DNA of 64,000 bases from assembly GCA_018062305.1 (NCBI GenBank), contig JAGOSK010000001.1, positions 19,005 through 83,004 on the forward strand, in the 5' to 3' direction. How positions within the stretch are numbered: position 1 is the stretch's first letter; every line of letters starts with the position of its first letter. The notes below the pieces were generated by a model. The model ran no database searches. It saw only the letters and a list, made by a program, of their open reading frames with translations, and had not been told where the DNA came from. Below are positions 17,092-52,993 of the stretch, piece by piece. Origin of the DNA: Minisyncoccota bacterium (lineage in GTDB: Bacteria; Patescibacteriota; Minisyncoccia; Phycocordibacterales; CAIZLB01). The position numbers were made by a program, and so were the translations under genes.

Positions 17092-17198
17092 ATTTTATTT
17101 TAAAGATCTTCTGTTTCGTCCTTTTGGACTCATCAGTCGGAATTACATTCCGAGACAGAGAGATTTTACGGGTAATCTCGAACCGAGTGGGTTTACCA

Positions 17199-18524: not shown

Positions 18525-18680
18525 GAGAATCGGTCACGCGTTAAAATTGCGGCACAATTTTCCGCGCGACCCCGCCTCCCTCGTTGCGCTTCGCCGATTA
18601 ACCCTTTATGAGATGCGTAAAAGTACCGACTCACTGCGCAACTTCAGTCCGGCTTTCGATTCTCGCTTATCCAATAGCAA
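18524..18680 (+). repeat. Copy A of a conserved structured ~155-nt element (candidate ncRNA) adjacent to tRNA-Gly
   Basis: Two conserved blocks are shared with copy B at 21606..21760: a block of about 75 nt beginning GAGAATCGGTCACGCG and a block of about 44 nt ending CCGGCTTTCGATTC. It starts on the trmB stop codon and is followed by a terminator. Confidence 0.6.
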
Positions 18681-21565: not shown

Positions 21566-21605
21566 GTTTTGTCGATATCTGTACACAGTGGGTGGGGTAG
21601 TAAGG

Positions 21606-21760
21606 GGAGAGAATCGGTCACGCGTTAAAATTGCTCCACAATTTTCCGCGCGACCCCGCCTCCCTCGTTGCACTTCGCCGATTGGGACACCGCAATAAAA
21701 TACAAAAGTACCGGCTCACTGCGCAACTTCAGTCCGGCTTTCGATTCCTACTTGTCCCAC
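21606..21760 (+). repeat. Copy B of the conserved structured ~155-nt element (candidate ncRNA) adjacent to tRNA-Gly
   Basis: Block 1 and block 2 are near-identical to copy A, with different intervening segments. It is followed by a perfect hairpin terminator. Confidence 0.6.
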
Positions 21761-37393: not shown

Positions 37394-39460
37394 ATGAGTA
37401 TATACATGACTGGAAGTTATTTTCACAAAAAAATAATTCTTATTGTTGCACTTGCGTCTTTTTTGATTGTTGGGTTTTTTCCATCAACCACACAAAGCGC
37501 CGTTACTGCGACAGACCTTTTAAAATTAACTAATCCTACTACAGCTGCCATCGGAGCTGTAAATATAGCCACGGATACATTCGGTAATGGTAAGGCTACA
37601 CAAAATGACCAAATTTACTGCCTTAAAACAACCGGAGTCACTGATGGTTATGTACCCGATATTAGTATCCCCGGCTGTGCTGCCTATGTTTCTTTTACTA
37701 TCCTCCAGGTCGCTTCTTGGGTACTTTGGGTAGCAGCCATTCTTTTCAACAAAACCCTTGGCTACACACTGAACATGGCAGGGTTCATAAAAGATATACC
37801 AATAGTCGCAGTTGGTTGGACAACCTTCAGAGATGTAACCAACTTGATGTTTGTCTTTATTATCCTCTATATTGCGATCAATACTATTATAGGAAACGAA
37901 GGTTATGGTATTAAAAAACTTCTTGGAAAAGTAATTGTAGGAGCGATGCTTATAAATTTCAGTTTGTTTTTTACCCAAATAGCGATTGATGCTTCAAATA
38001 TATTTGCATTACAGTTTTACAACAAAATAACAGTATCGGCTCAAGGTCAAAATATATCTTCAGGAAAAGATGGGAGTAACACCGACTGGGATGCGGGTAT
38101 TTCTGCGGCATTTGTAAATGCTATGGGTCTCCAACAGATCTATTTCTGGGGGAAGGGGGCACAGTCTTCTGGAACTGGAGAGGGTGCAGACTTGAACGAC
38201 GTAAATGGTTCGACCAAACTTGGCCTAAATCCAGGAAACATGATACTTGTAGGATTAGGAGGAACCGTACTTGTACTCATCACTGCATTTGTATTTTTTG
38301 CGGCAACATTTATGTTTTTTATGCGAACTATTACATTAATGTTTTTGATGATTTTATCACCAGTAGCATTTATGGGAAACATTCTCCCTGCTCTAGGAAA
38401 GCACACAGGAAAATGGTGGAGTAAACTCACAGATAATCTATTATTTGCTCCTACATACATGATGCTTTTGTATCTCGTAATGAGCATGCTCACCAGTGGT
38501 GCTTTCAAAGGAATAAACGGTAAGGGGAGTAATTTTGCAGATATGTTCGCAGGTGGTACAAGTTGGACTGGTGCAGTGATGACTTTCATTGTATTAGTTT
38601 CACTCATGTTTGGTTGTCTAATCATTGCGGTCTCGTTTGGTGCTAGTGGTGCAAAATGGGCTGAGAAATTTGCTAAAGACGGGTCACTTTCTTTTGGAAA
38701 GTGGGCTGGAGGGGGTATTGCAAGAGGTGGAGCTGGTCGGCTGGGAGACTTTGCATCAAGTAGTAAATATTTGGCGAATATTAGTGCGAGGAGCCCGAAC
38801 TCCTTTGTTGGTAGATCTGCTGCTGCACTTATGCAGAGGGGTGACAAGCTAAAAGATGTAAAGATTGCAGGTAAAAGCTTTAATGAACGAGTGAAAGAAA
38901 AGCAAAAAGATTATACAAAGAGAGGAAATCTAATTGAGAAGGCATTACTTGATGTTGGTGATGCACCAATAAACCCTGGGGCAGGTGCTTCTCTGGCAGC
39001 ACAAACAGCATATAACACAGAAAAGACTGCATATGACACAAGAGTGGCACAAGCAAAAACAGCTGCGGCAAAAGCAGAAAAAGACTATCTTGGAGGAAAA
39101 AGATTTTCATATGCGAGTACAGCAGCTATGAAAAAGGCAGCAAAAGCAGCACAGGGTACAGATAACAAAGAGGCTTTGGAAAACCTCATATCCAAAACAG
39201 GTAAGTGGTCTCAAGATGAACATAATAGAGCCAAGGATACAATCGAAAAAGATGAAGTTGATGCAAATGGTAATGTAATAACCCAGTCTTTGAATAATCA
39301 AATTAAGGAATTAAGACTCCAATCTAAAATACCTGGAGCAGACCTTGGAAGAATAAACCAACAATTATCTATTATAATGGGAGAAAAGAAGGAACTAGAA
39401 GTTATTATCAAGGGCCACCTTGATACAGTTGGTAAATTAAGTAACCTCGAATCAAAATAA
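37394..39460 (+). CDS. Polytopic membrane protein, VirB6/TrbL-like candidate, with a C-terminal Lys/Ala-rich coiled-coil tail
   Basis: At least six hydrophobic helices after a signal sequence, then a hydrophilic tail of about 270 aa. The position and topology match the VirB6 class. Confidence 0.5.
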   Translation: MSIYMTGSYFHKKIILIVALASFLIVGFFPSTTQSAVTATDLLKLTNPTTAAIGAVNIATDTFGNGKATQNDQIYCLKTTGVTDGYVPDISIPGCAAYVSFTILQVASWVLWVAAILFNKTLGYTLNMAGFIKDIPIVAVGWTTFRDVTNLMFVFIILYIAINTIIGNEGYGIKKLLGKVIVGAMLINFSLFFTQIAIDASNIFALQFYNKITVSAQGQNISSGKDGSNTDWDAGISAAFVNAMGLQQIYFWGKGAQSSGTGEGADLNDVNGSTKLGLNPGNMILVGLGGTVLVLITAFVFFAATFMFFMRTITLMFLMILSPVAFMGNILPALGKHTGKWWSKLTDNLLFAPTYMMLLYLVMSMLTSGAFKGINGKGSNFADMFAGGTSWTGAVMTFIVLVSLMFGCLIIAVSFGASGAKWAEKFAKDGSLSFGKWAGGGIARGGAGRLGDFASSSKYLANISARSPNSFVGRSAAALMQRGDKLKDVKIAGKSFNERVKEKQKDYTKRGNLIEKALLDVGDAPINPGAGASLAAQTAYNTEKTAYDTRVAQAKTAAAKAEKDYLGGKRFSYASTAAMKKAAKAAQGTDNKEALENLISKTGKWSQDEHNRAKDTIEKDEVDANGNVITQSLNNQIKELRLQSKIPGADLGRINQQLSIIMGEKKELEVIIKGHLDTVGKLSNLESK

Positions 39461-40628: not shown

Positions 40629-41096
40629 ATGCGTTATCAGGTACCACAATTTATTGAGGTAGAAGACAAAATATTCGGGCCTTTTACATTCAAACAATTC
40701 GTATACATGGCAGGAGGGGCTGGTATTTGTTTTATCGCCTACCGAGCAGTCCCACTTTTTTGGGCAATTCTCATTATGCTACCAGCCGGGGGTTTTGCTG
40801 CGGCATTGGCATTCTACAGACCGAACAATAGACCGTTTATCAACACCATAGAATCTGCGTTCAACTATCTCATTACCCAAAAACTCTATATATGGAGGAA
40901 AATAGATAAAAAAGTAGAACAAAAAAGCGCCGTAGAAATACTCGAGGCGGTCAAATCTTCTATCTCAGTTCCAAAACTCTCAGAAAGTAGACTCAAAGAT
41001 CTCGCATGGAGTCTCGACATCAACGAAACGGTGTATTCAAGACAATCCGGTAAACTTCAAGGGAGAACTGATGCGCAAAGTAAAAAGACATTTTAA
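40629..41096 (+). CDS. Small two-TM membrane protein, VirB3/PrgI-like candidate
   Basis: Two adjacent hydrophobic helices (FVYMAGGAGICFIAYRAVPLFWAILIMLPAGGFAAALAF). It sits upstream of the VirB4-like ATPase, as in Gram-positive T4SS loci. Confidence 0.4.
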   Translation: MRYQVPQFIEVEDKIFGPFTFKQFVYMAGGAGICFIAYRAVPLFWAILIMLPAGGFAAALAFYRPNNRPFINTIESAFNYLITQKLYIWRKIDKKVEQKSAVEILEAVKSSISVPKLSESRLKDLAWSLDINETVYSRQSGKLQGRTDAQSKKTF

Positions 41097-41157: not shown

Positions 41158-41808
41158 ATGGCTACAGAAGCAAACAATGCAAAACCAACACAGTCATTTG
41201 TTCCTATAAAAGAGATTCGCGATGGTATCATTGTGCTCAAAGATGGTTCACTTCGTTCTATTCTCCTTGCTTCTTCACTCAACTTTGCTCTCAAATCTTC
41301 TGAAGAACAACAATCAATTATTTTTCAATTTCAAAACTTTCTAAACTCAATTAACTTTTCCATTCAGATTTACACTCAGTCTCGAAGGCTCGATATACGC
41401 CCATACATAGCCCTCCTAGAGGAACGACTTAAGGAGCAGGTAGGGGATTTGATGAAAATGCAAACTCGAGAATATATAGAGTTTATCAAAAGTTTCACCG
41501 AGTCTACCAGTATTATGACCAAAAGCTTTTTTATAGTTGTTTCGTACTCTGCCCCAGCACTCGGAGGTACGACAGCTATAAAAAAGTCATTTTTTGGAGG
41601 GGGTGGTACAAAGAAAGAACAGGAAAAAACAACATTTGAAGAAAGTAGGAGTCAGCTCCAACAGCGAGTCGAGGTAGTGGAGCAAGGGCTCGTTCGATGT
41701 GGTATCCGTATTGCAAGCCTTGGAACAGAGGAGCTTATTGAATTGTTTTACAAAACATTCAATCCAGGGGATATAGAAAAGCCAATTCACTTAACGCAAA
41801 ATAAATAA
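41158..41808 (+). CDS. Hypothetical protein immediately upstream of the VirB4-like ATPase
   Basis: 216-aa ORF. Its stop lies 5 nt before the next start. Confidence 0.45.
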   Translation: MATEANNAKPTQSFVPIKEIRDGIIVLKDGSLRSILLASSLNFALKSSEEQQSIIFQFQNFLNSINFSIQIYTQSRRLDIRPYIALLEERLKEQVGDLMKMQTREYIEFIKSFTESTSIMTKSFFIVVSYSAPALGGTTAIKKSFFGGGGTKKEQEKTTFEESRSQLQQRVEVVEQGLVRCGIRIASLGTEELIELFYKTFNPGDIEKPIHLTQNK

Positions 41809-41813
41809 CATAT

Positions 41814-43742
41814 ATGGCATTCCTCGATTTTTTAAAACCTAAACAAACAAAGAGCAATCCTATTGCGTCAGTTCTTCCACAAGAAATCTACCAAAGTGGT
41901 GTATTGGAACTTCAAGACATCATCGCTCCATCTGCTCTAAAGGTTACACCGCGTGCTCTAAACCTCGGCGACAAGCTCGTGCGAACATTCTTTGTTATTT
42001 CATATCCTCGATTTCTTTCAGAGAGTTGGTTTGCTCCGGTTATCAACCTCGACAAGATTTTTGATATTTCTATTTTCATTCATCCTATCGACACAGCTTC
42101 AGTACTACGAACATTCCAGAAAAAAGTAGCTGAAGTACAAAGTCAGATACACATGAGAGAGGAGAAAGGGCTCGTGCGTGATCCAATGCTCGACACTGCC
42201 TACCAAGACCTCGAATCACTTCGAGACAATCTTCAGCAAGCTCAGGAAAAAATCTTTGATGTAGGGCTCTACATATCAATCTACGGAGACAGTGAGCAAG
42301 ACCTAGACAAAATCGAGTCAGAAGTGAAGTCTATTCTTGAATCAAGTCTCGTATACCTCAAGCCTGCTCTTTTCCAACAGGAACAAGGTTTCAAAAGTGT
42401 GCTTCCGATCGCTGACGACCAGCTCAACATTCACTCAAAACTTAATTCTGCGCCACTTTCGAGTGTGTTTCCATTTATTTCATTCGACCTTACTTCAGAC
42501 AAGGGTATTTTGTATGGTATCAACAGACACAACTCTTCACTTATCCTCTTTGATCGATTCTCACTTGAAAACTACAACTCTATTACTTTTGCTAAGTCTG
42601 GTTCTGGAAAATCATATACAACCAAGCTCGAAATCCTTCGATCTATGATGTTTGATACAGACGTGATAGTACTCGACCCTGAGCGAGAATATGAATATCT
42701 TGCTGAAGCTACAGGAGGACGATTCTTCAACATCTCTTTGAGTTCTGAGCACCACATCAACCCCTTTGACCTTCCTACTCCACGTGAAGACGAGGCAAGT
42801 GCCGACGTACTTCGATCAAACATTATCAACCTTGTAGGACTTTTCCGAATCATGCTTGGAGGACTTACACCTGAAGAAGATGCTATCGTAGACCGAGCTA
42901 TTACAGAAACATATGCCCTCAAAGATATCACTCCTGAGTCCAACTTTGCAGCGGTAGAACCACCACTTATGTCAGACTTCGAACTCGTACTCGCAGGTAT
43001 GGAAGGAGGGGAATCACTCGTACAACGACTCACAAAGTATACAAAGGGTACTTGGGCAGGATTTATCAACCGTCCTTCAAACGTAGACATCAACAAGAAG
43101 TTCGTGGTGTTCTCAATGCGAGACATGGAAGACGAACTCAAGCCAGTAGCGATGTATATCGTAATGCACTTCATTTGGAACCAGATTCGAAAAGAGCTCA
43201 AGCGACGACTTATGGTTATTGATGAGGCATGGTGGATGATGAAATCAGAAGATACCGCTTCTTTCCTCTATGGACTTGCAAAACGAGGACGAAAATACTA
43301 TCTAGGACTCGCTACAATCACTCAGGACGTGGAGGACTTCCTCAAGTCACCTTATGGACTACCTATTATTACAAACTCGTCTATTCAGCTTCTACTCAAG
43401 CAGTCGCCATCATCTATTGATATTGTGCAAAAGACTTTTAACCTTACCGACGAAGAAAAGTATCTACTCCTCGAGTCTGATGTGGGAGAGGGAATCTTCT
43501 TTGCTGGACTTAAACACGTTGCTATCAAGGTTATTTCTTCATATACAGAAGATCAAATCATCACATCTTCTCCATCACAGGTTTTGGATATGAAAAAGGC
43601 TAGAGCGGACCTCGCAACGAAAGGACTGGTAACAGAAGATCAGGTGAGTGGAAATATCAGCGCAAGTAATACATTTATGGATAATATGGAAGCTGAAGGA
43701 AAGAGAAACATAGCAGATATAAAAGCGGAGCAAAATCTGTAA
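41814..43742 (+). CDS. VirB4/TrbE/PrgJ-family type IV secretion ATPase
   Basis: Walker A FAKSGSGKSYT, the VirB4-typical Walker B LMVIDEAWWMM and the LGLATITQ motif. The N-terminal region resembles the Gram-positive VirB4 N-domain. Confidence 0.75.
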   Translation: MAFLDFLKPKQTKSNPIASVLPQEIYQSGVLELQDIIAPSALKVTPRALNLGDKLVRTFFVISYPRFLSESWFAPVINLDKIFDISIFIHPIDTASVLRTFQKKVAEVQSQIHMREEKGLVRDPMLDTAYQDLESLRDNLQQAQEKIFDVGLYISIYGDSEQDLDKIESEVKSILESSLVYLKPALFQQEQGFKSVLPIADDQLNIHSKLNSAPLSSVFPFISFDLTSDKGILYGINRHNSSLILFDRFSLENYNSITFAKSGSGKSYTTKLEILRSMMFDTDVIVLDPEREYEYLAEATGGRFFNISLSSEHHINPFDLPTPREDEASADVLRSNIINLVGLFRIMLGGLTPEEDAIVDRAITETYALKDITPESNFAAVEPPLMSDFELVLAGMEGGESLVQRLTKYTKGTWAGFINRPSNVDINKKFVVFSMRDMEDELKPVAMYIVMHFIWNQIRKELKRRLMVIDEAWWMMKSEDTASFLYGLAKRGRKYYLGLATITQDVEDFLKSPYGLPIITNSSIQLLLKQSPSSIDIVQKTFNLTDEEKYLLLESDVGEGIFFAGLKHVAIKVISSYTEDQIITSSPSQVLDMKKARADLATKGLVTEDQVSGNISASNTFMDNMEAEGKRNIADIKAEQNL

Positions 43743-43845: not shown

Positions 43846-44475
43846 GTGCATATGATAGTATTCGATCCAGATAGTCCTAGTAATTTACAATCAGATAACC
43901 TACGCACAGGCAGTAGGACTGGTTCTGCTTCAGGAGATATGCTTGCAGAGCAAGGCGATCAAGCTGAAAACGAGCTCGCGGGGCGAGGTGAACGTGGTGA
44001 ACAGTACAAACAACAAACTCGTCAGCAACGATTCATGACACAGAGAATGCGAGAGTTATCTGAAAAGGACACAACAAACGGAAACTCACAAGTTCGAAGA
44101 CCACGAAACGAGAGATTTAAAAACCAAAAGGAAGACCAGCCAACCAAATTTGGTAGATCAGATGTTGTGATCATGTCGGTTGTGGCACTTATGTTTGACG
44201 GAGTAGGGGGAATCATCAGTCTGCTTGATTTTATTATTCCTCCAACTGGTGAGTTTATAAACAGTGTCACCGTTTTTCCTTTAGCTACACTTACCTTGTA
44301 TACGATGTATAAACATCGGGGGGTTGAATTTAAAGATACAAAGGTACTTGTTCGATTTTGGGGAAGTCTATTGATCGGCTTTATACCTATAGTGGCAATA
44401 CTTCCTGAATATTTTTTAAATGTAATCTTGGTTTCAACAGTAATGAAAGCTGAGGAAAAGATAAAGAATTTATAA
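43846..44475 (+). CDS. Hypothetical membrane protein (charged N-terminus, three C-terminal TM helices)
   Basis: ORF with hydrophobic helices in the C-terminal half. Confidence 0.4.
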   Translation: MHMIVFDPDSPSNLQSDNLRTGSRTGSASGDMLAEQGDQAENELAGRGERGEQYKQQTRQQRFMTQRMRELSEKDTTNGNSQVRRPRNERFKNQKEDQPTKFGRSDVVIMSVVALMFDGVGGIISLLDFIIPPTGEFINSVTVFPLATLTLYTMYKHRGVEFKDTKVLVRFWGSLLIGFIPIVAILPEYFLNVILVSTVMKAEEKIKNL

Positions 44476-44509
44476 TTGTTTGATATAATAAGAAAGATCA
44501 CCTTACTAT

Positions 44510-45694
44510 ATGAATAAGAATTTTACTGAATTAAACAAATCAAATATTAGAAAAGGTCATGCAGCCCAGGTTGGCATAGCTTTTGTTCTCATTATATTTT
44601 CTTTATCATTTTTTAATATTCACTCTGATACTCAAAAAGCGCAAGCTCAGGAAACGCCAAATTTCGGTAGTTCTAATTTTATGGAATCTAATCTAGCACA
44701 GACAACAGGTGAACCAGGCACAGGCGACCCAAGTATCCCATTTACATCAAAATTTCCTCAAATAAAAGAGCAATTAGTCGTTGAAGTTAGCCCTGAAATA
44801 CCGAAACCTGGCGACACTGTGACTATTTCAGCAGAACTGTATGGAGATATTGATTTAAATTCAACCCTCATATCATGGAAAAAAAATGGGGTTGTAGAAC
44901 TCAAAGGAATTGGTAAGAAAGAATTCAGTTTTGTAATGGATGCTACTGGAAAACTCACAACGATAGATTTTGAGGCAACTCCAACAAATGCGCCAGCTAT
45001 TACAAAAACCTGGAGCTTTGCACCCGTAGATGTAGACATACTCTGGCAAGCAAACACATACACACCACCTTTCTACAAAGGTAAGGCTCTTTTTACACCC
45101 GAATCAAATGTCACTTTTATAGCCCTACCAAACATACTCATAGGAGGAAAGCGTGTGGACTCATCAGATGTAGTATACAAATGGAAAGTAGACAGAACTG
45201 TAGATGGAGCAAACTCTGGTTTTGGAAAAAGTTCGTATGACTTTACTGGCTCTATTATTCTAAAGCCGACTCTCATACAAGCTGAGGTCTATGCCGCGGC
45301 AAACAGTGCCTACAAAGGTATAAATGGATTTCAAATTTCCCATGTGTTTCCACAAGCACTTGTTTATGAAGATAGTCCACTATATGGCATCTTATTCAAT
45401 AAAGCTCTTCGTAATCAATATACTATCAAGAGTGATGAGGTTGAATTGTCAGTAATTCCATATTTCTTTAGTACAGAAGGAAAAAACAGTGCGGTCACAT
45501 ACAAGTGGGACCTCAACACTTCATCACTCTCTCTACCAGAATTTCAAAATTCTGCAGTATTTCGAAGAAAGGACAACAAAAAAGGTTCTGCAAATGTGTC
45601 TATCACAATCGGCAATCCTTCAAAAATATTGCAAAAATCAAGCGCTGTCTTGGGTTTAATTTTCAATGAAAAGAATAGTGGTTTTGGGCAGTAG
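44510..45694 (+). CDS. Hypothetical secreted protein
   Basis: N-terminal signal/anchor (VGIAFVLIIFSLSFF) followed by a beta-rich domain. Confidence 0.5.
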   Translation: MNKNFTELNKSNIRKGHAAQVGIAFVLIIFSLSFFNIHSDTQKAQAQETPNFGSSNFMESNLAQTTGEPGTGDPSIPFTSKFPQIKEQLVVEVSPEIPKPGDTVTISAELYGDIDLNSTLISWKKNGVVELKGIGKKEFSFVMDATGKLTTIDFEATPTNAPAITKTWSFAPVDVDILWQANTYTPPFYKGKALFTPESNVTFIALPNILIGGKRVDSSDVVYKWKVDRTVDGANSGFGKSSYDFTGSIILKPTLIQAEVYAAANSAYKGINGFQISHVFPQALVYEDSPLYGILFNKALRNQYTIKSDEVELSVIPYFFSTEGKNSAVTYKWDLNTSSLSLPEFQNSAVFRRKDNKKGSANVSITIGNPSKILQKSSAVLGLIFNEKNSGFGQ

Positions 45695-45787
45695 TATACG
45701 GGTTAAATAAGAGTATAAATAGGCAAACAAACTTTTTTGCTTATTTATAACTTATAGAGATTAACTTATTTTGATATACTTATCTTT

Positions 45788-47152
45788 GTGAAGCACAAAC
45801 TAATCCATAAAATAGCTTATATATTTTTTATATTGGTTTGCTTTTTAAATTCATTCCTGACTGTTTTTGCAGCAGGGGCTTATTCCGATCTTGAAGCAGG
45901 GACATATACAGCAACTATCGAAAACTTTGCAAACAGCGGAAAAACGCAAACCTTCCAGATGGTTCTTATTCCTGATATAAACGGATATCTATATTTAGAT
46001 CGTGAAAAAACCAACATTCCAATCAAAGACTATTCGGGGGATAAGGATTACTTACCCGACGAACTTACCTATAAAAACGCAAACGGAAAAGAGGTTACAT
46101 TTGATCTCAGATCCACATCAAGAATCGATAATACGAGTGGGGCTATAAAAGTTGATGGTAAAGGAAATCTCACTTCACCAACAATTACTCAGACCGAAAC
46201 AAAACCAGTGGTGACTCTCGGAGCCACCACCCCTCCCCCAAACTCAAACGCTGGCTCATACACATTCCTTGCACCACTACCGTTCTTTGGGGGTCCATCA
46301 ATAAATATTGCAGAGGGAGGACTTGCTGGGTATTTAGATGGATTGTACAAAGCCGGTATTGCTGTAGCTACCGGGTTAGCACTCATTATGATTGTTGCAG
46401 GAGGTCTTGAGTATGCATCAGCTGGTTCTGTAGGAGGGAAAGATGGGGGAAAGAGTAAGATTAAAAATGCACTCATTGGATTACTACTTGCTTTGACTTC
46501 ATTCATCATATTGCAACAGATTAATCCTGGTCTCATTCGAAATGATTTGGCAGTAGATGCCACCAAGGCAGTAGGGGGTATTACCGGGCAGACGGTGGAT
46601 TTGGTTGATTATACCAACACAACATTAGGAAATCTGTATACACAGGGTATAATTGATGGATCGTTAGGAAACAATCCTGGGTCATTTCCAGGAAGTGGCG
46701 TCTTATCTACATCTGCGGTCGCGGCACGAATAGTGCAATCTGCTAGAGCAAATCTAAATGAATCAACTTGTTTCCCTGTTACAGAATACGGAAGAAGAGG
46801 CTGTGGCTATGCTTTTGGAAAGATAATGAGCGACGCTGGTGTTAATTTTACTAACCTAAACTCAAGTTCGGTCTTATCTACATCAAACATATATAGTGTT
46901 TTAGCAACCGACCAAAGGTTTACACTTGTTTCTATAAACGATACACGAAACGCCCTTCCGGGAGATATTATTATTTCACCAACAACATCTGTGGCAACTG
47001 GTCACGTAGGAATTATTGAACAAGCTGGTGCTGGAAAAATAATATCAAACAGTAGTAATGCTGGTTCAATTCAAGATTATTTTACTGGTCAAAAATGGTT
47101 AAATTATTACGGAGGAAAAGGATTAAAAACTTATATTTTTAGATATCGATAA
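45788..47152 (+). CDS. Secreted protein with a VirB2/pilin-like double-helix segment and a C-terminal CHAP/NlpC-P60-like hydrolase domain
   Basis: Signal peptide. Central segment AGIAVATGLALIMIVAGGLEYASAG...ALIGLLLALTSFIILQQ, two hydrophobic helices split by a charged loop. C-terminus has Cys in RRGCGYAF and His in TGHVGII. Confidence 0.5.
   Translation: MKHKLIHKIAYIFFILVCFLNSFLTVFAAGAYSDLEAGTYTATIENFANSGKTQTFQMVLIPDINGYLYLDREKTNIPIKDYSGDKDYLPDELTYKNANGKEVTFDLRSTSRIDNTSGAIKVDGKGNLTSPTITQTETKPVVTLGATTPPPNSNAGSYTFLAPLPFFGGPSINIAEGGLAGYLDGLYKAGIAVATGLALIMIVAGGLEYASAGSVGGKDGGKSKIKNALIGLLLALTSFIILQQINPGLIRNDLAVDATKAVGGITGQTVDLVDYTNTTLGNLYTQGIIDGSLGNNPGSFPGSGVLSTSAVAARIVQSARANLNESTCFPVTEYGRRGCGYAFGKIMSDAGVNFTNLNSSSVLSTSNIYSVLATDQRFTLVSINDTRNALPGDIIISPTTSVATGHVGIIEQAGAGKIISNSSNAGSIQDYFTGQKWLNYYGGKGLKTYIFRYR
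46225..46607. repeat. 383-bp segment 100% identical to 47720..48102 (copy 1)
   Basis: Compared base by base. It encodes the pilin-like segment in both genes. Confidence 0.9.
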
Positions 47153-47174
47153 AAAGAATGTATAATATATTGGT

Positions 47175-48617
47175 ATGTATATACGAAATCTACTTTTAGT
47201 TTTTATACTAGTATTTAATTTTTTATTGCCTTCTTTTACGTATTCTGCAGTAGCAGTAGGAAATCTGGTTAAATTGCAAAGTGCGAACGAGGTGTCTGAG
47301 GTTTCTATTGAAAAAAGCTACTACACCCCCGGGGCAGACCAGAGCAAAGCTACAAACTTCCAATTTATATATCAAAAGACTGCAGCTGATAACTATCAAC
47401 TTTCACAGGTCTTCGTACAAGATAGTAAGACTGGAGCGTTTGTAGACTCGACGTCTAAGTTCACAGAACAAATTCAGCGACAACCTCAATTTGAAGTTGT
47501 ATCAAAACAGGATATGTATCAGTACAAAATAGGTGCTCGAGATTTTCAGGAGGAAATTGCCCAAAAACAACTAAACACAACAGCATCTGTTAATAGTAAT
47601 ACAAACCCCGAGTTAGGTTTTAGGGATGGAACGAACCCAGATGATATTTTTAGAACCACAATGAATAATCTTCCGGGTAATACAGTAGGAAACCCTGTAG
47701 CAGTAGTACCTTCAACAAGCACCACCCCTCCCCCAAACTCAAACGCTGGCTCATACACATTCCTTGCACCACTACCGTTCTTTGGGGGTCCATCAATAAA
47801 TATTGCAGAGGGAGGACTTGCTGGGTATTTAGATGGATTGTACAAAGCCGGTATTGCTGTAGCTACCGGGTTAGCACTCATTATGATTGTTGCAGGAGGT
47901 CTTGAGTATGCATCAGCTGGTTCTGTAGGAGGGAAAGATGGGGGAAAGAGTAAGATTAAAAATGCACTCATTGGATTACTACTTGCTTTGACTTCATTCA
48001 TCATATTGCAACAGATTAATCCTGGTCTCATTCGAAATGATTTGGCAGTAGATGCCACCAAGGCAGTAGGGGGTATTACCGGGCAGACGGTGGATTTGGT
48101 TGCTGGAGGGGGTACAATAAATCAAATAATCCCTCCGGGACAACCAGGTAGTTATGTCTTAGCAAACAATGAAAACCCTTCAACAGGAACAGTTTTTAGT
48201 AATTATTCAAGTTTAAAACAATTATTAAATAGCCTTCCAAGTGGACCGAGATCTACAGATGGAAGTCTTATTTTTACAAATTATTGGAACGGAGATACAA
48301 ATACAAATCAACAGCGAGGAAACAACTGCAACCTTTTGGTATCTGGCTCAGTAGCACTCTCACCAGACCTTATATCTAGATATAATCCAAAAAAAGGGGC
48401 AGCAGTATATGTAAATGGTTTATTGGTTGGCTACTTTGACGACACAACAGGTGCAACAACACTGGGATATGTTGGAGGAACTCTTATTAGAAATACTATA
48501 GATATATATGATCCCAACCGAACTCTTGGATCAGTTCTTAAAAAAATGCCTCCAAATAGTTGGTATTTAGTATTTGGAACACAAAGAGCTCAAACACCAA
48601 ACCCTTGTCCTCGATAA
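47175..48617 (+). CDS. Secreted protein with the same VirB2/pilin-like segment and unrelated N- and C-terminal domains
   Basis: Signal peptide and the identical 127-aa cassette. The C-terminal domain is of unknown function. Confidence 0.5.
   Translation: MYIRNLLLVFILVFNFLLPSFTYSAVAVGNLVKLQSANEVSEVSIEKSYYTPGADQSKATNFQFIYQKTAADNYQLSQVFVQDSKTGAFVDSTSKFTEQIQRQPQFEVVSKQDMYQYKIGARDFQEEIAQKQLNTTASVNSNTNPELGFRDGTNPDDIFRTTMNNLPGNTVGNPVAVVPSTSTTPPPNSNAGSYTFLAPLPFFGGPSINIAEGGLAGYLDGLYKAGIAVATGLALIMIVAGGLEYASAGSVGGKDGGKSKIKNALIGLLLALTSFIILQQINPGLIRNDLAVDATKAVGGITGQTVDLVAGGGTINQIIPPGQPGSYVLANNENPSTGTVFSNYSSLKQLLNSLPSGPRSTDGSLIFTNYWNGDTNTNQQRGNNCNLLVSGSVALSPDLISRYNPKKGAAVYVNGLLVGYFDDTTGATTLGYVGGTLIRNTIDIYDPNRTLGSVLKKMPPNSWYLVFGTQRAQTPNPCPR
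47720..48102. repeat. 383-bp segment 100% identical to 46225..46607 (copy 2)
   Basis: Compared base by base. Confidence 0.9.
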
Positions 48618-48722
48618 GCTCTCACACCTACAAATTCCAACAAAACGATTTTTTGTATTCACACATGTAATACAAAACAATCACTAGCTCTCAATTATAT
48701 ATAACTGTATAATTAAACAAAC

Positions 48723-50180
48723 ATGATATCGAGAAGAACTTCTTTTATAATAATTATTGTAGTTTTAAGTTTGCTTGTGGGTGGGCTCATTGGTTTCTAT
48801 TTTTATACAAAGAATAAAAATCCCGGATCAACTATTTTAGGTAATCGAATAGGGGGGAGAACTAATTTTGGAGGATATGACCCGGACAATCAAACTGCGA
48901 CATCGAGTACAAATACCAATACGAGCACCACAACACCTATCACTAACGACATTGTGCCAGTCAATACAAAAGTTCCGAAGCTTCGTAAAATAAGTGACGT
49001 TCCTACTGCTGGTGTAGATTTTGTCACGATACCCATATATGAAGACACAAATAAGAATGTCGAACCAGCTGACCTTTCTGTTTCAAAAACAAAAGTTCCA
49101 GTAAAAAAACCGCTTAAATTTATTGGAAACAAAACGGTAGTTCGATATATAGAAAGAGCGACAGGACATATCTATGAAACAGCAACTAGCTCACTCGAAA
49201 AAGTTAGAATTTCCAATACAACGGAACCAAAAATATATGAAGCTTATTTTACCAATAGAGGAGATAACCTTATTTTAAGGGGTCTCATTGGTAGTTCGGA
49301 TATTATCAGTACACGATATGCATCACTAGTGCTCGCATCCACAACTGATACAGAGAGTGAATTTTCTAAAATATTAACAACCAAAGATCTGCCAATCCAG
49401 ATTTCACAGGTTGCCATTTCACCTAGTAAAACTCAGCTATTTTCGATTTCACCATCAGGAGTCAGAGGAATATTATCAAAAATTGATGGCGGTTCTACTG
49501 TTGGTATCTTTGATACACCATACAGAGAATGGATTCCATCATGGCCAGAAGAAAAAAACATTGTTCTCACCACTAGAGCATCTGGATTTGCGCCTGGTTT
49601 TGCATATATATTAAATACACCAACAAGACAAATCACTCGAATCCTCGGAAATATCTATGGACTAACAACTCTCACTTCACCAGATCTATCAAAAGTACTA
49701 TTTAGTTCAAGTGAACGAGGTACTTTTACTCTCAATTATTTAAATAGAAAAGACTCATCTATCTCAAACCTCTCATTTAAAACTCTTCCTGAAAAATGTA
49801 TCTGGTCTAAAAAAGATAGGAATGTTCTGTTTTGTGCTGTTCCAGAAAACATCGCATTTAGTACATATCCTGATGTTTGGTACCAGGGTCTTATAAACTT
49901 CTCAGACTCTATTTGGAGAATAGATATAAACACAGGTGAAACAAGACTTATTATGAACATCCAGAACGAATCTGGTGAAGTTATAGACGCTACAAACCTT
50001 TATGTGAGTGCCGGTGACGACTATCTCGTCTTTACAAACAAAGTAGACCTCACACTTTGGGGACTACAACTCGTTCCACCCGTCGAAGACACCACCGCCA
50101 ACCCACTAGATACTATCAACTCAATAAATAAAGCCTCAACAACATCTTCTTCGACAGCCCCAACAACACCTACAAACTAG
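48723..50180 (+). CDS. Hypothetical N-terminally anchored protein with a probable beta-propeller-like ectodomain
   Basis: N-terminal TM helix (FIIIIVVLSLLVGGLIGFYFY), a Thr/Ser-rich linker, then a long beta-rich domain. Confidence 0.45.
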   Translation: MISRRTSFIIIIVVLSLLVGGLIGFYFYTKNKNPGSTILGNRIGGRTNFGGYDPDNQTATSSTNTNTSTTTPITNDIVPVNTKVPKLRKISDVPTAGVDFVTIPIYEDTNKNVEPADLSVSKTKVPVKKPLKFIGNKTVVRYIERATGHIYETATSSLEKVRISNTTEPKIYEAYFTNRGDNLILRGLIGSSDIISTRYASLVLASTTDTESEFSKILTTKDLPIQISQVAISPSKTQLFSISPSGVRGILSKIDGGSTVGIFDTPYREWIPSWPEEKNIVLTTRASGFAPGFAYILNTPTRQITRILGNIYGLTTLTSPDLSKVLFSSSERGTFTLNYLNRKDSSISNLSFKTLPEKCIWSKKDRNVLFCAVPENIAFSTYPDVWYQGLINFSDSIWRIDINTGETRLIMNIQNESGEVIDATNLYVSAGDDYLVFTNKVDLTLWGLQLVPPVEDTTANPLDTINSINKASTTSSSTAPTTPTN

Positions 50181-51646: not shown

Positions 51647-52993
51647 TTGTTCATTATGGATAGCAAAACTTTATGGGATTCTGTTTTAGTAAAGATTGAG
51701 ATTGATGTTACTAAAGCTACGTTTTCTACTTGGTTTAAAGATATCTACATCTCTAAGATTGATTCAGGTACAGTATATCTCGCTGTTCCAAACACTTTCG
51801 TCAAAGACTGGCTTACAAAAAGATTTCACAAGCAGATTCTAGAGAATCTAAGGACACTCCTTGAGTCTGTTCGATCTATTGAATATATTATTGCCCCTAT
51901 CAACAAAAAGAAAGAGGATTTTGTGACAGAAATACCTAGTCCAAACAAAGAATTACCACTAAATTCACTTTATATTGATCCAAGTGACAACCTTAACCCT
52001 CGATATACATTCGAAACTTTTGTTGTAGGACCCTTCAACGAGCTTGCATACGCTGCTTCACAAGCAATTATTAAAAAACCTGTTGCTTACAACCCACTTT
52101 TCTTTTATGGAAACACAGGACTCGGTAAAACACACCTCATGCAAGCAGTAGGAAACCACATTAAAAATCACCACAAAGAGAAGCGTATTCATTATGTAAC
52201 TTCTGAGCGTTTTACTATCGACTACATCAACTCAGTTCAATCAAACAAGGTAAATAATTTCAAAGAGAAGTACCGTAAGTATGATGTGTTTATTATGGAC
52301 GACATACAATTTCTTTCAAACAAGGAGAAGACGCAGGAGGAACTTTTTCACCTCTTCAACTACATGTACGACAGCAACAAGCAGATTATCTTTTCATCAG
52401 ATGTACACCCAAACTATCTGCAAAACCTAGAAGATCGCCTAAAATCAAGGTTTTTAGCGGGTATGATCATTGATATTTCACCACTTGATACCGAATCAAA
52501 GATTGCTATCCTCCAGACAAAATCTCAGATGAACAACTTCAACCTCCTACCAGAGGCGGCTTACTATATAGCTTCTATCGTCCATGGGAGTATCAGAGAA
52601 CTTGAAGGAACTCTCAATGCTGTTATTTGCCAATCACAACTCAAAGGGAGAGATCTTTCATTAAATGAAATCAAACAACTAACAAAAGATTCTACCAAAC
52701 CGCAAAAAACAATCTCAGTAAAAGATGTTGTGAAAGCTGTATCAGCTTTTTATAATATTGAAGAAGACAGTATCTACAATAAAACAAGGAGGCAAGAGGT
52801 TGTGAAGCCAAGACAACTCACGATGTATATATTAAGAGAGGATTATAATATTTCTTTTCCCTCTATAGGACAAAAACTTGGTAATAGAGATCACACAACA
52901 GTAATGCACTCATGCGATAAAATTAAAAACGAAATAAAAACAAACCCAGAACTTATAAATGAAATAAATCAAATAAGAGCCCTTATACAATAA
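51647..52993 (+). CDS. dnaA: Chromosomal replication initiator protein DnaA
   Basis: AAA+ Walker A GNTGLGKTHL, Walker B IMDDIQF, and the C-terminal DNA-binding domain (GQKLGNRDHTTVMHSC). Confidence 0.9.
   Translation: MFIMDSKTLWDSVLVKIEIDVTKATFSTWFKDIYISKIDSGTVYLAVPNTFVKDWLTKRFHKQILENLRTLLESVRSIEYIIAPINKKKEDFVTEIPSPNKELPLNSLYIDPSDNLNPRYTFETFVVGPFNELAYAASQAIIKKPVAYNPLFFYGNTGLGKTHLMQAVGNHIKNHHKEKRIHYVTSERFTIDYINSVQSNKVNNFKEKYRKYDVFIMDDIQFLSNKEKTQEELFHLFNYMYDSNKQIIFSSDVHPNYLQNLEDRLKSRFLAGMIIDISPLDTESKIAILQTKSQMNNFNLLPEAAYYIASIVHGSIRELEGTLNAVICQSQLKGRDLSLNEIKQLTKDSTKPQKTISVKDVVKAVSAFYNIEEDSIYNKTRRQEVVKPRQLTMYILREDYNISFPSIGQKLGNRDHTTVMHSCDKIKNEIKTNPELINEINQIRALIQ

What the first reader, a model, noticed from the sequence alone, without database searches (positions are those of the whole stretch)
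46225..48102. Perfectly identical 383-bp cassette encoding a pilin-like hairpin shared by two adjacent, otherwise unrelated genes
Positions 46225-46607 and 47720-48102 are identical base for base over 383 nt. Both lie in the same reading frame inside two neighbouring genes (45788-47152 and 47175-48617). Their flanking N- and C-terminal domains are unrelated.

The cassette encodes a 127-aa segment (TTPPPNSNAGSYTFLAPLPFFGG...IAVATGLALIMIVAGGLEYASAG...ALIGLLLALTSFIILQQINPGLIRNDLAVDATKAVGGITGQTVDLV). It has two hydrophobic helices around a charged loop. This is the VirB2/TrbC pilin architecture embedded in larger proteins.

With no divergence at all over 383 nt while the flanks share nothing, recent gene conversion or cassette exchange is the likeliest cause. 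It may reflect concerted evolution that keeps one interacting pilin-like module in two different carrier proteins, or a diversification system that swaps the variable domains. An assembly artefact is the main alternative explanation.
Basis: seen in the sequence. Interest (0 to 1): 0.75.

Follow-up and report, generated by a model that had tools for sequence, protein, structure and literature searches.

The report
Shared pilin module kept identical by gene conversion
Two neighbouring secretion-system genes of an ultrasmall (Patescibacteria) bacterium share a membrane "pilin" segment that repeated DNA copying between the genes keeps letter-for-letter identical, while the parts on either side (one a cell-wall-cutting enzyme) differ and are swapped between related species.

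Summary
Positions 46225-46607 and 47720-48102 are identical over exactly 383 nt, in the same codon phase, inside two adjacent genes whose flanks are unrelated.

It is not an assembly artefact. Independent assemblies of the same organism break exactly at the repeat ends. Nine other related genomes carry the same gene pair, with cassette copies 92-100% identical within a genome (a third, more divergent copy in L019 is 79-83%). Between genomes the cassettes are only 37-73% identical, with synonymous sites saturated. That is concerted evolution by recurrent gene conversion.

The cassette encodes a helical membrane hairpin of the VirB2/T4SS_pilin family. It lies in the conserved Patescibacteria type IV secretion operon (PrgI, split VirB4) next to dnaA.

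Gene A ends in a CHAP/NlpC-P60-type cysteine peptidase. Gene B ends in an unassigned beta-rich domain; in relatives that position holds SLT or 3D lytic-transglycosylase domains.

N- and C-terminal domains are reassorted around the cassette between species.

My best reading is pilin-anchored cell-wall hydrolases of the secretion system, with the shared module homogenised by recombination. Gene conversion among secretion-system pilin paralogues is known from Bartonella. The module-limited form and the pilin-hydrolase fusion appear undescribed in the literature I could search.

The parts
37394..39460 (+). 688-aa membrane protein upstream of the operon, a possible VirB6/TrbL-like channel subunit
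   Evidence: The identical gene on NCBI contig L004 carries a precomputed weak PF19590 TrbL_3 hit. My own Pfam scan found nothing at E<=0.01. The assignment is tentative.
40629..41096 (+). PrgI / VirB3-like protein
   Evidence: PF12666 PrgI, E 1.2e-9, 39 bits against a cutoff of 27.
41158..41808 (+). Separate N-terminal VirB4-like (TrsD/TraC-like) protein
   Evidence: NCBIfam VirB4_plasma N-terminal region E 4.6e-12; TrsD E 2.5e-7. PF26593 TraC-like on the identical gene of L004.
41814..43742 (+). [quoted passage not shown]
   Evidence: NF045971 conju_CD1110, E 2.5e-109, 366.6 bits against a cutoff of 325. PF19044 P-loop_TraG E 3.3e-26.
43846..44475 (+). Conserved 209-aa membrane protein of the operon, function unknown
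   Evidence: Two hydrophobic segments. Orthologues sit at the same position in relatives. No family hit.
44510..45694 (+). Conserved 394-aa protein with one N-terminal hydrophobic segment, function unknown
   Evidence: An orthologue at the same position in every close relative examined (12 loci), 30-75% identical. N-terminal hydrophobic segment at residues 16-39.
45788..47152 (+). Gene A (454 aa): signal-like N-terminus, N-domain, pilin-like hairpin cassette, CHAP/NlpC-P60-like cysteine peptidase
46225..46607 (+). Cassette copy 1 (383 nt, 127 aa; helices at about 46340-46417 and 46457-46537)
   Evidence: Exact identity to copy 2. Weak PF18895 hit, E 0.02. Cassette HMM E 1.6e-45. Modelled as a helical hairpin.
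46685..47149 (+). C-terminal papain-like cysteine peptidase domain of gene A (peptidoglycan hydrolase type)
   Evidence: Profile against PDB: CHAP endolysin Lys2972 (8tw1) E 2.9e-4; MepS/Spr, CwlO and C40 NlpC/P60 enzymes E 0.014-0.25. Cys and His are invariant in 8 orthologues. Pfam CHAP E 0.0064, below the cutoff. Best Foldseek hit is peptidoglycan hydrolase Cg1735, E 0.18.
47175..48617 (+). Gene B (480 aa): signal-like N-terminus, N-domain, the same hairpin cassette, beta-rich C-domain
47720..48102 (+). Cassette copy 2 (383 nt; helices at about 47835-47912 and 47952-48032)
   Evidence: Exact identity to copy 1. PF18895 E 0.01. Cassette HMM E 1.7e-45. Hairpin H210-247/H251-281 in the model.
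48192..48614 (+). C-terminal conserved beta-rich domain of gene B, function unassigned (possibly a double-psi beta-barrel)
   Evidence: Conserved family with 29 invariant columns. No Pfam, PDB, PHROG or NCBIfam match. hhalign against a true 3D domain was negative. Weak double-psi beta-barrel fold hits, E 0.3-0.5, target-normalised TM 0.46-0.56. JGI names homologue P0035 a '3D domain-containing protein'.
48723..50180 (+). Conserved 485-aa protein that closes the operon, function unknown
   Evidence: An orthologue downstream of the cassette gene(s) in the relatives, 27-74% identical. N-terminal hydrophobic segment.
51647..52993 (+). dnaA, which marks the replication-origin context of the operon (yidC, rnpA and rpmH lie just upstream on the minus strand, dnaN downstream)
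   Evidence: Pfam families on the identical NCBI contig L007. The same synteny holds in L090, L092 and L094.

Best explanation
**What it is.** The two copies are real. They are the central modules of two tandem paralogous genes in the chromosomal type IV secretion (T4SS) operon of a Paceibacteria-type Patescibacterium.

**How the proteins are built.**
- Each protein appears to be Sec-exported.
- Each is held in the membrane by a VirB2/T4SS_pilin-type helical hairpin whose basic loop faces the cytoplasm.
- This places both its N-terminal domain and its C-terminal domain outside the cell.
- Gene A displays a CHAP/NlpC-P60-type cysteine peptidase.
- Gene B displays a second ectodomain that I could not assign. 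In relatives the same position holds an SLT or 3D lytic-transglycosylase domain.
- The pair therefore most likely supplies the peptidase and glycosidase activities that Gram-positive T4SSs combine in one VirB1-like protein. Here each would be tethered to, or built into, the machine through the same pilin module.

**Why the DNA is identical.** The cassette is kept identical by frequent non-reciprocal homologous recombination (gene conversion) between the two direct copies. The tracts are confined to the homologous module. Over longer times the same homology serves as a crossover point at which N- and C-terminal domains are reassorted between genes and genomes.

**Shown versus inferred.**
- Shown: the repeat; its recurrence in relatives; the within-genome versus between-genome pattern; pilin-family membership at family level; the operon context; the peptidase assignment of gene A; the domain mosaicism.
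- Inferred: membrane topology; attachment to the T4SS; enzymatic targets; RecA dependence; any selective benefit of identity.
For: **The repeat**
- Exact 383-nt repeat, in phase, with chance-level flanks.

**Independent assemblies of the same organism**
- NCBI contig JAGONH010000032 ends exactly at window position 46607.
- NCBI contig JAGONH010000002 starts exactly at 47720.
- Two Logan contigs from different runs also end at 46607.
- This is what a real repeat with two contexts at each end produces in short-read assemblies.

**Same architecture elsewhere**
- The same gene pair, in the same codon phase, has exact cassettes of 418 nt (L001), 409 nt (L090), 505 nt (L092) and 508 nt (L094).
- L093, another assembly close to L092, shows 2 mismatches in 504 nt.
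- L074, L010, L014, L019 and L009 are 92-100% identical within the genome over the cassette (L019's third copy 79-83%). L074, L010, L014 and L019 keep exact cores of 249-388 nt with graded edges; L009's differences are scattered and its longest exact run is 95 nt.

**Within versus between genomes**
- Cassettes from different genomes are only 37-73% nt identical.
- Window versus L001: dS 1.27 and dN 0.27 in the cassette.
- The flanks are orthologous between window and L001: A_N 54%, A_C 80%, B_N 77%.
- In all 10 multi-copy genomes the copies are each other's nearest neighbours: p-distance 0-0.08 for the closest copy (0.17 for the third L019 copy), against at least 0.24 to any other genome.

**Pilin family**
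- PF18895 in 70 of 79 relatives, best E 2.4e-10.
- PF04956 TrbC in 4.
- Hits above the gathering score in L090 B and L019.
- Hairpin in both models.

**Operon context**
- PrgI, split VirB4 and dnaA nearby.
- This matches the published description of the Patescibacteria T4SS (PMC12102498).

**Hydrolases**
- Gene A C-domain.
- SLT and 3D domains above gathering in the partner genes of relatives.

**Mosaicism**
-.
Against: - No reads were available. Bubble-popping by assemblers could turn roughly 99% identity into 100%.
- The junctions cassette-to-A C-domain and B N-domain-to-cassette of this particular organism are seen only in the window itself.
- The window's own cassette scores below Pfam's gathering threshold (15-16 bits against 26.6).
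- The profile match to solved VirB2 is not significant (E 2.9).
- The C-domain of gene B has no significant match to anything, so the 'two hydrolases' reading is proven only for gene A here.
- Nothing shows that the hairpin contacts the T4SS or polymerises.
- No test separates neutral homogenisation from selection for identity.
- The test for GC-biased gene conversion was negative.
Confidence: 0.8

Rival explanations
1. Assembly artefact: a single cassette was duplicated, or two diverged copies were collapsed to one consensus, by a short-read assembler.
For: - A 383-nt repeat is longer than typical k-mers, and several public assemblies fragment there.
- One JGI contig (L088) joins A' N-domain, cassette and B' C-domain directly, skipping the middle. 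This shows that assemblers take alternative paths here.
- Bubble-popping could erase a few real differences.
Against: - A direct repeat with unique segments before, between and after it has only one path through the assembly graph. The segment between the copies (46608-47719) carries the in-frame end of gene A and the start of gene B.
- Both ORFs stay open across all four junctions.
- The same two-gene layout is assembled in 9 other genomes from different projects, including 31-193 kb contigs.
- Some of those genomes have non-identical copies, which cannot be collapse products.
- Contig breaks lie exactly at the repeat ends, which implies branching at both ends in the reads.
Confidence: 0.04
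2. A very recent one-off event rather than ongoing concerted evolution: either duplication of a pilin-hydrolase gene followed by replacement of its flanks, or a single recent insertion of the module into a neighbouring gene.
For: - Most relatives (65 of 70 GTDB loci with a cassette gene) have only one such gene, so copy number does change.
- Multi-copy lineages are interspersed among single-copy ones.
Against: - The window and L001 share orthologous A and B flanks (54-80% aa, synonymous sites saturated). Both genes therefore predate their split.
- Yet each genome has its own cassette sequence in both genes: 66-68% nt between genomes, 100% within.
- The same holds for L090, L092 and L094.
- Exact cores with progressively diverged edges are what nested, repeated conversion tracts leave.
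Confidence: 0.07
3. A selected, quasi-programmed diversification system. The identical cassette would be kept as a recombination hinge so that the cell or population can swap ectodomains (as with pilE/pilS or polymorphic-toxin orphan modules) and change host specificity.
For: - Domain mosaicism around the cassette. B N-domain type 1 occurs with two C-domain types (window, L001). The window-type C-domain occurs with two N-domain types (window, L092). P0029-P0031 carry yet another N-domain.
- Chimeric contig L088 is 100% identical to its parental parts.
- Some proteins carry 2-4 tandem cassettes.
- The downstream genes evolve about ten times faster at non-synonymous sites than VirB4.
Against: - There are no silent or promoterless donor copies. 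Both copies sit in full-length genes with signal-like N-termini.
- No recombinase, invertase or reverse transcriptase was found in the operon or among the ten upstream ORFs (22.1-39.5 kb) that I scanned.
- There are only two copies.
- The mosaicism is seen between species, not within a population.
- L088 may be an assembler shortcut.
Confidence: 0.08
4. Nucleotide-level purifying selection, for example an RNA element or regulatory site embedded in the cassette, keeps both copies identical.
For: The cassette is more GC-rich than its genes (46% against 40%).
Against: - Such a constraint would also conserve the sequence between species. Instead the cassettes are 55-73% identical among the five closest two-copy genomes (37-73% across all ten), with saturated synonymous sites.
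- The GC3 excess of cassettes is no greater in multi-copy loci than in single-copy loci.
Confidence: 0.01

Closest known systems
Bartonella Trw type IV secretion system: tandemly amplified trwL (VirB2-type pilin) and trwJ genes evolving by diversifying selection and concerted evolution (Nystedt et al. 2008, Mol Biol Evol 25:287; reference 82 in PMC12102498)
   Same: - Paralogous T4SS pilin genes arranged in tandem.
- Homogenised within a genome by recombination or gene conversion while diverging between species.
- Surface-exposed components thought to interact with the host.
   Different: - In Bartonella whole small pilin genes are amplified. Here only an internal module of about 130-170 aa is homogenised, inside two multidomain proteins whose other domains are unrelated.
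- The host is a monoderm-type Patescibacterium with a chromosomal, relaxase-less T4SS.
- I know the Bartonella work only from the citation and from my own knowledge. I did not read the paper here.
VirB2-like pilin arrays of Patescibacteria T4SS (Quinonero-Coronel et al. 2025, PMC12102498; Wang et al. 2023, PMC10633639)
   Same: - Same protein family (PF18895/PF04956).
- Same operon, with PrgI and VirB4, often next to dnaA.
- Several pilin-family genes in a row.
   Different: - The published arrays are 2-11 genes described as highly variable, averaging 25% and at most 54% amino-acid identity. Here the pilin modules are 100% identical in DNA.
- Whole-protein identity of this pair is only about a quarter to a third, so such pairs would pass unnoticed in that kind of survey.
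- The published description treats VirB2 and VirB1 homologues separately and does not mention pilin-hydrolase fusions.
VirB1-like peptidoglycan hydrolases of Gram-positive conjugation systems (PrgK of pCF10, TraG of pIP501: membrane anchor + SLT + CHAP), as summarised in PMC12102498
   Same: - Encoded in the T4SS operon.
- Membrane-anchored and extracytoplasmic.
- Combine a glycosidase with a CHAP-type peptidase.
- Gene A has the CHAP/NlpC-P60-type domain, and the partner genes in relatives have SLT or 3D domains.
   Different: - Here the activities are split over two genes.
- The anchor is a pilin-family hairpin in the middle of the protein rather than a single N-terminal helix.
- The second domain in this window is unassigned.
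Classical bacterial gene conversion between paralogues, such as tufA/tufB in Salmonella or babA/babB in Helicobacter pylori (own knowledge, not checked here)
   Same: - Non-reciprocal homologous recombination keeps segments of paralogues identical.
- Boundaries are set by the extent of homology.
- Can generate chimeric genes.
   Different: - Those cases involve whole genes or gene ends. Here a central module lies between unrelated domains.
- Here the copies are direct repeats only about 1.5 kb apart, which should also favour deletion.
Polymorphic toxin loci (CdiA-CT, Rhs) with a conserved region followed by exchangeable C-terminal domains (own knowledge; a functional analogy only)
   Same: A conserved segment serves as the recombination point for swapping variable C-terminal extracellular enzymatic domains.
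   Different: - No immunity genes, no orphan modules and no delimiting peptide motif were identified here.
- Here the N-terminal domains vary as well.

Membership tests
VirB2/TrbC/T4SS_pilin superfamily (PF18895, PF04956) | Significant match to the family profile | tested here: inconclusive
   - Window copies: PF18895 E 0.02 and 0.01, 15.4 and 16.3 bits, below the gathering score of 26.6. NF045849 pilin-like E 0.013 and 0.0056.
- At family level the feature is met. 70 of 79 position-equivalent homologues match PF18895 at E<=0.01 (best 2.4e-10), and 4 match PF04956 (best 8.3e-7).
- L090 B (27.2 bits) and L019 (39.8 bits) pass the gathering score.
VirB2/TrbC/T4SS_pilin superfamily (PF18895, PF04956) | Two hydrophobic helices joined by a short, positively charged loop, preceded by an export signal | tested here: met
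   - Hydropathy segments and N-terminal hydrophobic stretches.
- AlphaFold2 hairpins, pLDDT about 50-77.
- Loop GGKDGGKSKIKN, read directly from the sequence.
VirB2/TrbC/T4SS_pilin superfamily (PF18895, PF04956) | Encoded with VirB4 and VirB3-type genes | tested here: met
   PrgI, the VirB4 N-fragment and VirB4 lie 2-5 kb upstream on the same strand. The synteny is conserved in the roughly 16 loci inspected gene by gene. A cassette gene lies downstream of virB4 in 70 of the 80 GTDB loci.
VirB2/TrbC/T4SS_pilin superfamily (PF18895, PF04956) | Structural similarity to solved conjugative pilins | tested here: inconclusive
- Sequence profile against A. tumefaciens VirB2 (8exh, 8cue): E 2.9.
VirB2/TrbC/T4SS_pilin superfamily (PF18895, PF04956) | Small protein (mature form about 70-120 aa) that polymerises into a pilus | tested here: not met
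   - The proteins are 454 and 480 aa, with about 145-180 aa on each side of the module.
- Polymerisation cannot be tested with these tools.
- These are therefore pilin-module fusion proteins, not canonical pilins.
CHAP / NlpC-P60 cysteine peptidases (peptidoglycan hydrolases), for the C-domain of gene A | Profile similarity to the family | tested here: met
   - A profile of 8 orthologues against PDB: CHAP-type endolysin Lys2972 E 2.9e-4 over 121 residues.
- Then MepS/Spr, CwlO and C40 NlpC/P60 enzymes, E 0.014-0.25.
- Pfam CHAP for the single sequence is E 0.0064, 17.4 bits, below the cutoff of 26.
CHAP / NlpC-P60 cysteine peptidases (peptidoglycan hydrolases), for the C-domain of gene A | Conserved catalytic Cys and His | tested here: met
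   Invariant Cys (motif G/A-C-G/A) and invariant His (motif GH-x-G-I/V) in all 8 orthologues. They align with the corresponding region of Lys2972. An invariant Asn follows. Their catalytic role is inferred.
3D / double-psi beta-barrel lytic transglycosylase-like domains, for the C-domain of gene B | Profile or fold similarity to 3D/MltA/RlpA-type domains | tested here: inconclusive
   - No Pfam, PDB, PHROG or NCBIfam hit.
- hhalign against the bona fide 3D domain of L014 gave probability 0.4%.
- Foldseek double-psi beta-barrel hits at E 0.3-0.5, target-normalised TM 0.46-0.56.
- One homologue is named a '3D domain-containing protein' by JGI.
- I do not file it as a member.
VirB1-like T4SS cell-wall hydrolases (PrgK/TraG type) | T4SS-operon-encoded, membrane-anchored, extracytoplasmic SLT/lysozyme plus CHAP domains | tested here: inconclusive
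   - Operon location: met.
- CHAP-type domain: met for gene A.
- SLT domain: not found in the window, but present above gathering in the partner genes of L009 and L090 (and in P0010, P0012, P0036).
- Extracytoplasmic location is inferred from topology only.
Concerted evolution by interlocus gene conversion (a process) | Paralogous segments more alike within a genome than orthologous segments between genomes, while the flanks show normal orthology | tested here: met
   - 10 genomes: 92-100% within (a third L019 copy 79-83%), against 37-73% between.
- Nearest-neighbour test and NJ tree group the copies by genome.
- The A_N, A_C and B_N flanks are orthologous between window and L001, and A_C across five genomes.
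- dS 0 within, above 1 between.
Concerted evolution by interlocus gene conversion (a process) | Tract-like boundaries | tested here: met
   - Abrupt ends in the window.
- Tract length varies by lineage, 383-508 nt.
- Exact cores of 249-456 nt with graded edges in the partly diverged pairs.
Programmed variation systems (pilE/pilS-type cassettes, shufflons, diversity-generating retroelements) | Silent donor cassettes, or a dedicated recombinase or reverse transcriptase with its target repeats | tested here: not met
   - Both copies lie in complete ORFs with export signals.
- No recombinase or reverse-transcriptase family in the operon or among the ten upstream ORFs (22.1-39.5 kb) scanned.
- No inverted repeats of 40 nt or more in the window.
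Mobile repeat / generic DNA repeat | Many copies in unrelated contexts, or presence on mobile elements | tested here: not met
   - Only two copies in 64 kb.
- No DNA match in the phage or plasmid collections.
- The protein module is a widespread domain (11,013 cluster representatives at E<=1e-3), but as a diverged family, not as repeated DNA.

The most novel reading that the evidence does not exclude
In this Paceibacteria clade the only pilin-family proteins of the essential-type T4SS operon are enzyme-bearing fusions. The 'pilus' or channel collar may itself be built from, or decorated with, cell-wall-degrading ectodomains. In that case the shared hairpin would be the common assembly handle, and gene conversion would keep it compatible with a single machine. 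The same handle would double as a recombination hinge that lets lineages exchange N- and C-terminal ectodomains, acting as a modular effector-display system tuned to the host envelope.
Probability: 0.2. Interest if true: 0.85.

Novelty: new variant of a known kind. Interest (0 to 1): 0.6.

Why it matters
- The T4SS is the one Patescibacteria machine shown to be essential for epibiotic growth (PMC10633639, PMC12857230). What it does, and how it passes cell walls, is unknown.
- This locus suggests that in one large clade the VirB2-like module and the VirB1-like wall-cutting activities are physically fused. [quoted passage not shown] Fusions of this kind may bear on both observations, but I did not test that.
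- It gives a clean natural example of module-limited concerted evolution inside multidomain proteins. It also shows how such a module allows domain shuffling.
- Practical warning 1: identical cassettes break short-read assemblies exactly here, so these genes are systematically truncated or lost in genomes assembled from metagenomes.
- Practical warning 2: whole-protein identity measures hide the identical core.

Tried and rejected
1. Exact-protein look-ups of genes A and B found nothing. The organism is represented only by partial proteins cut at the repeat.
2. The metagenome scan with the cassette alignment failed for lack of conserved columns. The scan with the single cassette gave only one distant locus, L089, so no independent contig crosses both copies of this organism.
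3. GC-biased gene conversion: the GC3 excess of the cassette over the rest of the gene is not larger in multi-copy loci than in single-copy loci (0.043 against 0.074, p 0.14). Rejected as detectable.
4. My initial motif-based guess that the gene B C-domain is a 3D domain was not confirmed. hhalign was negative and no family or PDB hits were found. Only weak double-psi beta-barrel fold hits remain.
6. The sequence profile of the cassette against PDB placed VirB2 second to fourth of the four hits, at a non-significant E 2.9.
7. A mobile-element origin was checked against phages and plasmids, with no match.
8. P0044, a 95%-identical 'relative', is a chimeric short contig product (helicase-like N-terminus joined to the cassette) and was discarded.
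9. One dN/dS row (A_C) was computed in the wrong frame and is not used. BLASTP gives 80% identity for that domain.

Full report
**1. The observation**

The repeat is exactly as described. Positions 46225-46607 and 47720-48102 are identical over 383 nt, and the identity stops abruptly on both sides. The 30-300 nt flanks are 30-40% identical, which is chance level.

Both copies begin at the third position of a codon in two adjacent same-strand ORFs, 45788-47152 (454 aa) and 47175-48617 (480 aa). They encode the same 127 residues.

No other long exact repeat exists in the 64-kb window, and there are no Ns. The N-terminal parts of the two proteins show no similarity to each other, nor do the C-terminal parts.

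**2. Is it an artefact?**

The organism is also represented by an NCBI genome assembled from a metagenome, GCA_017993115.1 ('Candidatus Pacebacteria bacterium').

- Its contig JAGONH010000032 ends exactly at window position 46607, the last base of copy 1.
- Its contig JAGONH010000002 starts exactly at 47720, the first base of copy 2.
- Two Logan assemblies of different sequencing runs also end at 46607. All are 99.97-100% identical to the window.
- Breaks at both repeat ends mean that the reads branch there. The cassette therefore has at least two left contexts and two right contexts in independent data.

A caveat on the Logan contigs: they were retrieved through the truncated protein, so their end point is partly selected by the look-up.

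More important, the same architecture recurs in other genomes.

- L001 (JGI, 193-kb contig) has the orthologous gene pair with an exact 418-nt in-phase repeat.
- L090, L092 and L094 have exact repeats of 409, 505 and 508 nt.
- L093, another assembly close to L092, has 2 mismatches in 504 nt.
- L009, L010, L014, L019 (three copies) and L074 have copies 92-100% identical over the cassette (the third L019 copy 79-83%).
- L010, L014, L019 and L074 keep exact cores of 249-388 nt with progressively diverged edges; L009's differences are scattered, with a longest exact run of 95 nt.
- Non-identical copies cannot be collapse products.

What remains untestable without reads is whether identity is truly 100% or about 99%, because assemblers can pop small bubbles.

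**3. Concerted evolution**

Between genomes the cassettes are only 37-73% identical in DNA. For the window against L001:

| Segment | dS | dN |
|---|---|---|
| Cassette | 1.27 | 0.27 |
| B N-domain | saturated | 0.17 |
| 394-aa neighbour | saturated | 0.19 |
| 485-aa neighbour | saturated | 0.19 |
| VirB4 | 0.88 | 0.023 |

The cassette is therefore not slow-evolving.

The flanks are orthologous between window and L001: A N-domain 54%, A C-domain 80%, B N-domain 77% amino-acid identity. The A C-domain is recognisable in five genomes at 40-80%. Both genes, each with its cassette, thus predate these lineages. Yet each genome has its own cassette sequence in both genes.

In a nearest-neighbour test and a neighbour-joining tree, the copies of all ten multi-copy genomes pair by genome. 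The p-distance is 0-0.08 to the closest copy (0.17 for the third L019 copy), against at least 0.24 to the closest cassette of any other genome.

This is the defining pattern of concerted evolution by recurrent interlocus gene conversion. Nucleotide-level selection is excluded by the between-genome divergence. A one-off recent duplication is excluded by the orthology of the flanks.

Tract length differs by lineage (383-508 nt) and the edges are graded, as expected for homology-limited, repeated tracts. I found no signal of GC-biased conversion.

**4. What the cassette encodes, and where it sits**

Upstream on the same strand lie:
- PrgI/VirB3-like, 40629-41096 (PF12666, E 1.2e-9);
- a separate VirB4 N-terminal-like protein, 41158-41808;
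- the VirB4 ATPase, 41814-43742 (NF045971, E 2.5e-109);
- conserved proteins of 209 and 394 aa.

Downstream lie a conserved 485-aa protein, then yidC, rnpA, rpmH, dnaA and dnaN.

This is the chromosomal, origin-proximal Patescibacteria T4SS described by Quinonero-Coronel et al. 2025 (PMC12102498). Its Saccharibacteria counterpart is essential for epibiotic growth (PMC10633639, PMC12857230).

Evidence on family membership of the cassette:
- The window cassettes match PF18895 T4SS_pilin only weakly (E 0.01-0.02).
- Of 79 position-equivalent proteins from relatives, 70 match PF18895 (best 2.4e-10) and 4 match PF04956 TrbC/VirB2. Some pass the gathering score.
- Hydropathy and AlphaFold2 give a signal-like N-terminus and a two-helix hairpin with a lysine-rich loop.
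- The sequence profile against solved VirB2 is not significant (E 2.9).

The module is therefore a member of the VirB2/T4SS_pilin family by homology through its relatives. The proteins are not canonical pilins, because the module is embedded between about 145-180 aa on each side.

A six-frame HMM scan finds no other member of this cassette family in the window. In a library of 1.84 billion representative proteins the module has 11,013 relatives at E<=1e-3. Most of the best 150 are 200-650 aa long, and a few have 2-4 modules. So fusion of this module to large ectodomains is common. What is special here is the DNA identity.

**5. The flanking domains**

*Gene A, C-domain.*
- A profile of eight orthologues hits the CHAP-type endolysin Lys2972 (8tw1, E 2.9e-4, 121 residues), followed by NlpC/P60 peptidoglycan peptidases.
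- Cys and His are invariant.
- Pfam CHAP is sub-threshold.
- The best Foldseek hit is a peptidoglycan hydrolase (E 0.18).
- I assign it as a papain-like peptidoglycan peptidase or amidase.

*Gene B, C-domain.*
- It belongs to a well-conserved family with no significant match to any Pfam, NCBIfam, PHROG or PDB sequence.
- hhalign against a genuine 3D domain is negative.
- Only weak double-psi beta-barrel fold hits remain.
- I leave it unassigned.

*Relatives.* The gene paired with the CHAP-like gene carries SLT (L009, L090; also P0010, P0012, P0036) or 3D (L014) above Pfam gathering scores. Single-copy relatives include NlpC/P60, CHAP and even a subtilase. By analogy, the pair provides a peptidase and a glycosidase, as in the two-domain VirB1-like hydrolases PrgK and TraG of Gram-positive systems. 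That last step is inference.

**6. Domain reassortment**

- The window and L001 share the B N-domain (77%) but have unrelated B C-domains.
- The window and L092 share the B C-domain (68%) but have unrelated B N-domains.
- L090 and L094 share an SLT-type C-domain (72%).
- P0029-P0031 combine a further N-domain with the window-type C-domain.

The cassette is thus the constant hinge around which both ends have been exchanged.

One JGI contig (L088) is exactly L001's A N-domain plus cassette joined to cassette plus B C-domain. It is either a deletion variant produced by recombination between the direct repeats or an assembler shortcut. I cannot tell which.

There are no silent cassettes, and no recombinase or reverse transcriptase was found in the operon or among the upstream ORFs I scanned. 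I therefore regard the shuffling as a by-product of homology, or at most an exploited by-product, and not a programmed system.

**7. Distribution**

- Among 80 GTDB species representatives with VirB4 at least 76% identical, 70 have a cassette gene at the equivalent position.
- Five of these have two or three copies, and in every one of them the copies are near-identical.
- Three further contigs (L008, L037, L066) end inside or just after the cassette. Contigs L091 and L095 end near the start of, or just inside, the second copy.
- The multi-copy state is therefore under-counted.
- This census covers plus-strand ORFs of at least 80 aa matching my cassette HMM at E<=1e-3. More divergent small pilins would be missed.

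**8. Comparison with what is known, and verdict**

Concerted evolution of tandem T4SS pilin paralogues is known from the Bartonella Trw system (cited in PMC12102498). Pilin arrays in Patescibacteria are published, but are described as highly divergent (average 25%, maximum 54% identity).

I found no description, in the searchable library, of pilin-module/hydrolase fusions or of identical modules.

I rate this a new variant of a known kind. The finding is real, reproducible across a clade, and mechanistically interpretable. It is relevant to how the Patescibacteria T4SS deals with cell walls. The underlying evolutionary process is a familiar one.

Noticed in passing
window 17108-17161 (-): Rfam Hammerhead_3 (RF00008) match just above the gathering score (50.0 against 48.5 bits, E 4.9e-8, full-length model) in this Patescibacteria chromosome segment.
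   Followed up: no
window 18517-18672 and 21601-21757 (element read on the minus strand): A two-part GC-rich element of about 150 nt, 91-93% identical between its two copies. Each copy lies just 3' of a tRNA-Gly gene (anticodons tcc and gcc) after a hairpin. No Rfam family matches it: best hit FdoG1_thermometer, 13.7 bits, E 0.41. It may be an undescribed structured RNA or a tRNA-linked repeat.
   Followed up: partly
window 41814-43742 compared with 43846-50180; L001: Steep rate change inside one operon. VirB4 is 98% identical in protein between window and L001 (dN 0.023). The genes immediately downstream (394-aa, A, B, 485-aa) are only 54-80% identical (dN 0.17-0.37).
   Followed up: partly
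L088 (JGI 3300027913, 1786 nt) compared with L001 9737-10831 and 12024-13132: This contig encodes a 501-aa chimera (P0006) made of A' N-domain, cassette and B' C-domain, 100% identical to the parental segments. It is either a deletion variant from recombination between the cassette copies or an assembler shortcut.
   Followed up: partly
L019 13882-15306; proteins P0050, P0052, P0072, P0097, P0129: Some relatives carry two to four pilin-like hairpin modules in tandem within one protein. L019 has two modules 92% identical in DNA in one ORF, plus a third in the next gene.
   Followed up: no
L008 end, L037 end, L066 end, L091 end, L095 end: Public contigs of related genomes often terminate inside or right after the cassette. 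Identical modules therefore systematically break short-read assemblies and truncate these genes in genomes assembled from metagenomes.
   Followed up: partly
protein P0044 (204 aa): A database protein 95% identical to the cassette has a helicase-like N-terminus joined to the cassette in the middle of the module. It is most likely a chimeric short-read contig.
   Followed up: partly
window 7117-7292 and 61552-61727: A 176-nt direct repeat at 70% identity lies inside two long minus-strand ORFs (6666-8441 and 60987-62795). These are presumably diverged paralogues.
   Followed up: no
window 30803-31918 (-): A separate LysM + Peptidase_M23 cell-wall hydrolase is encoded about 9 kb upstream of the T4SS operon.
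   Followed up: no
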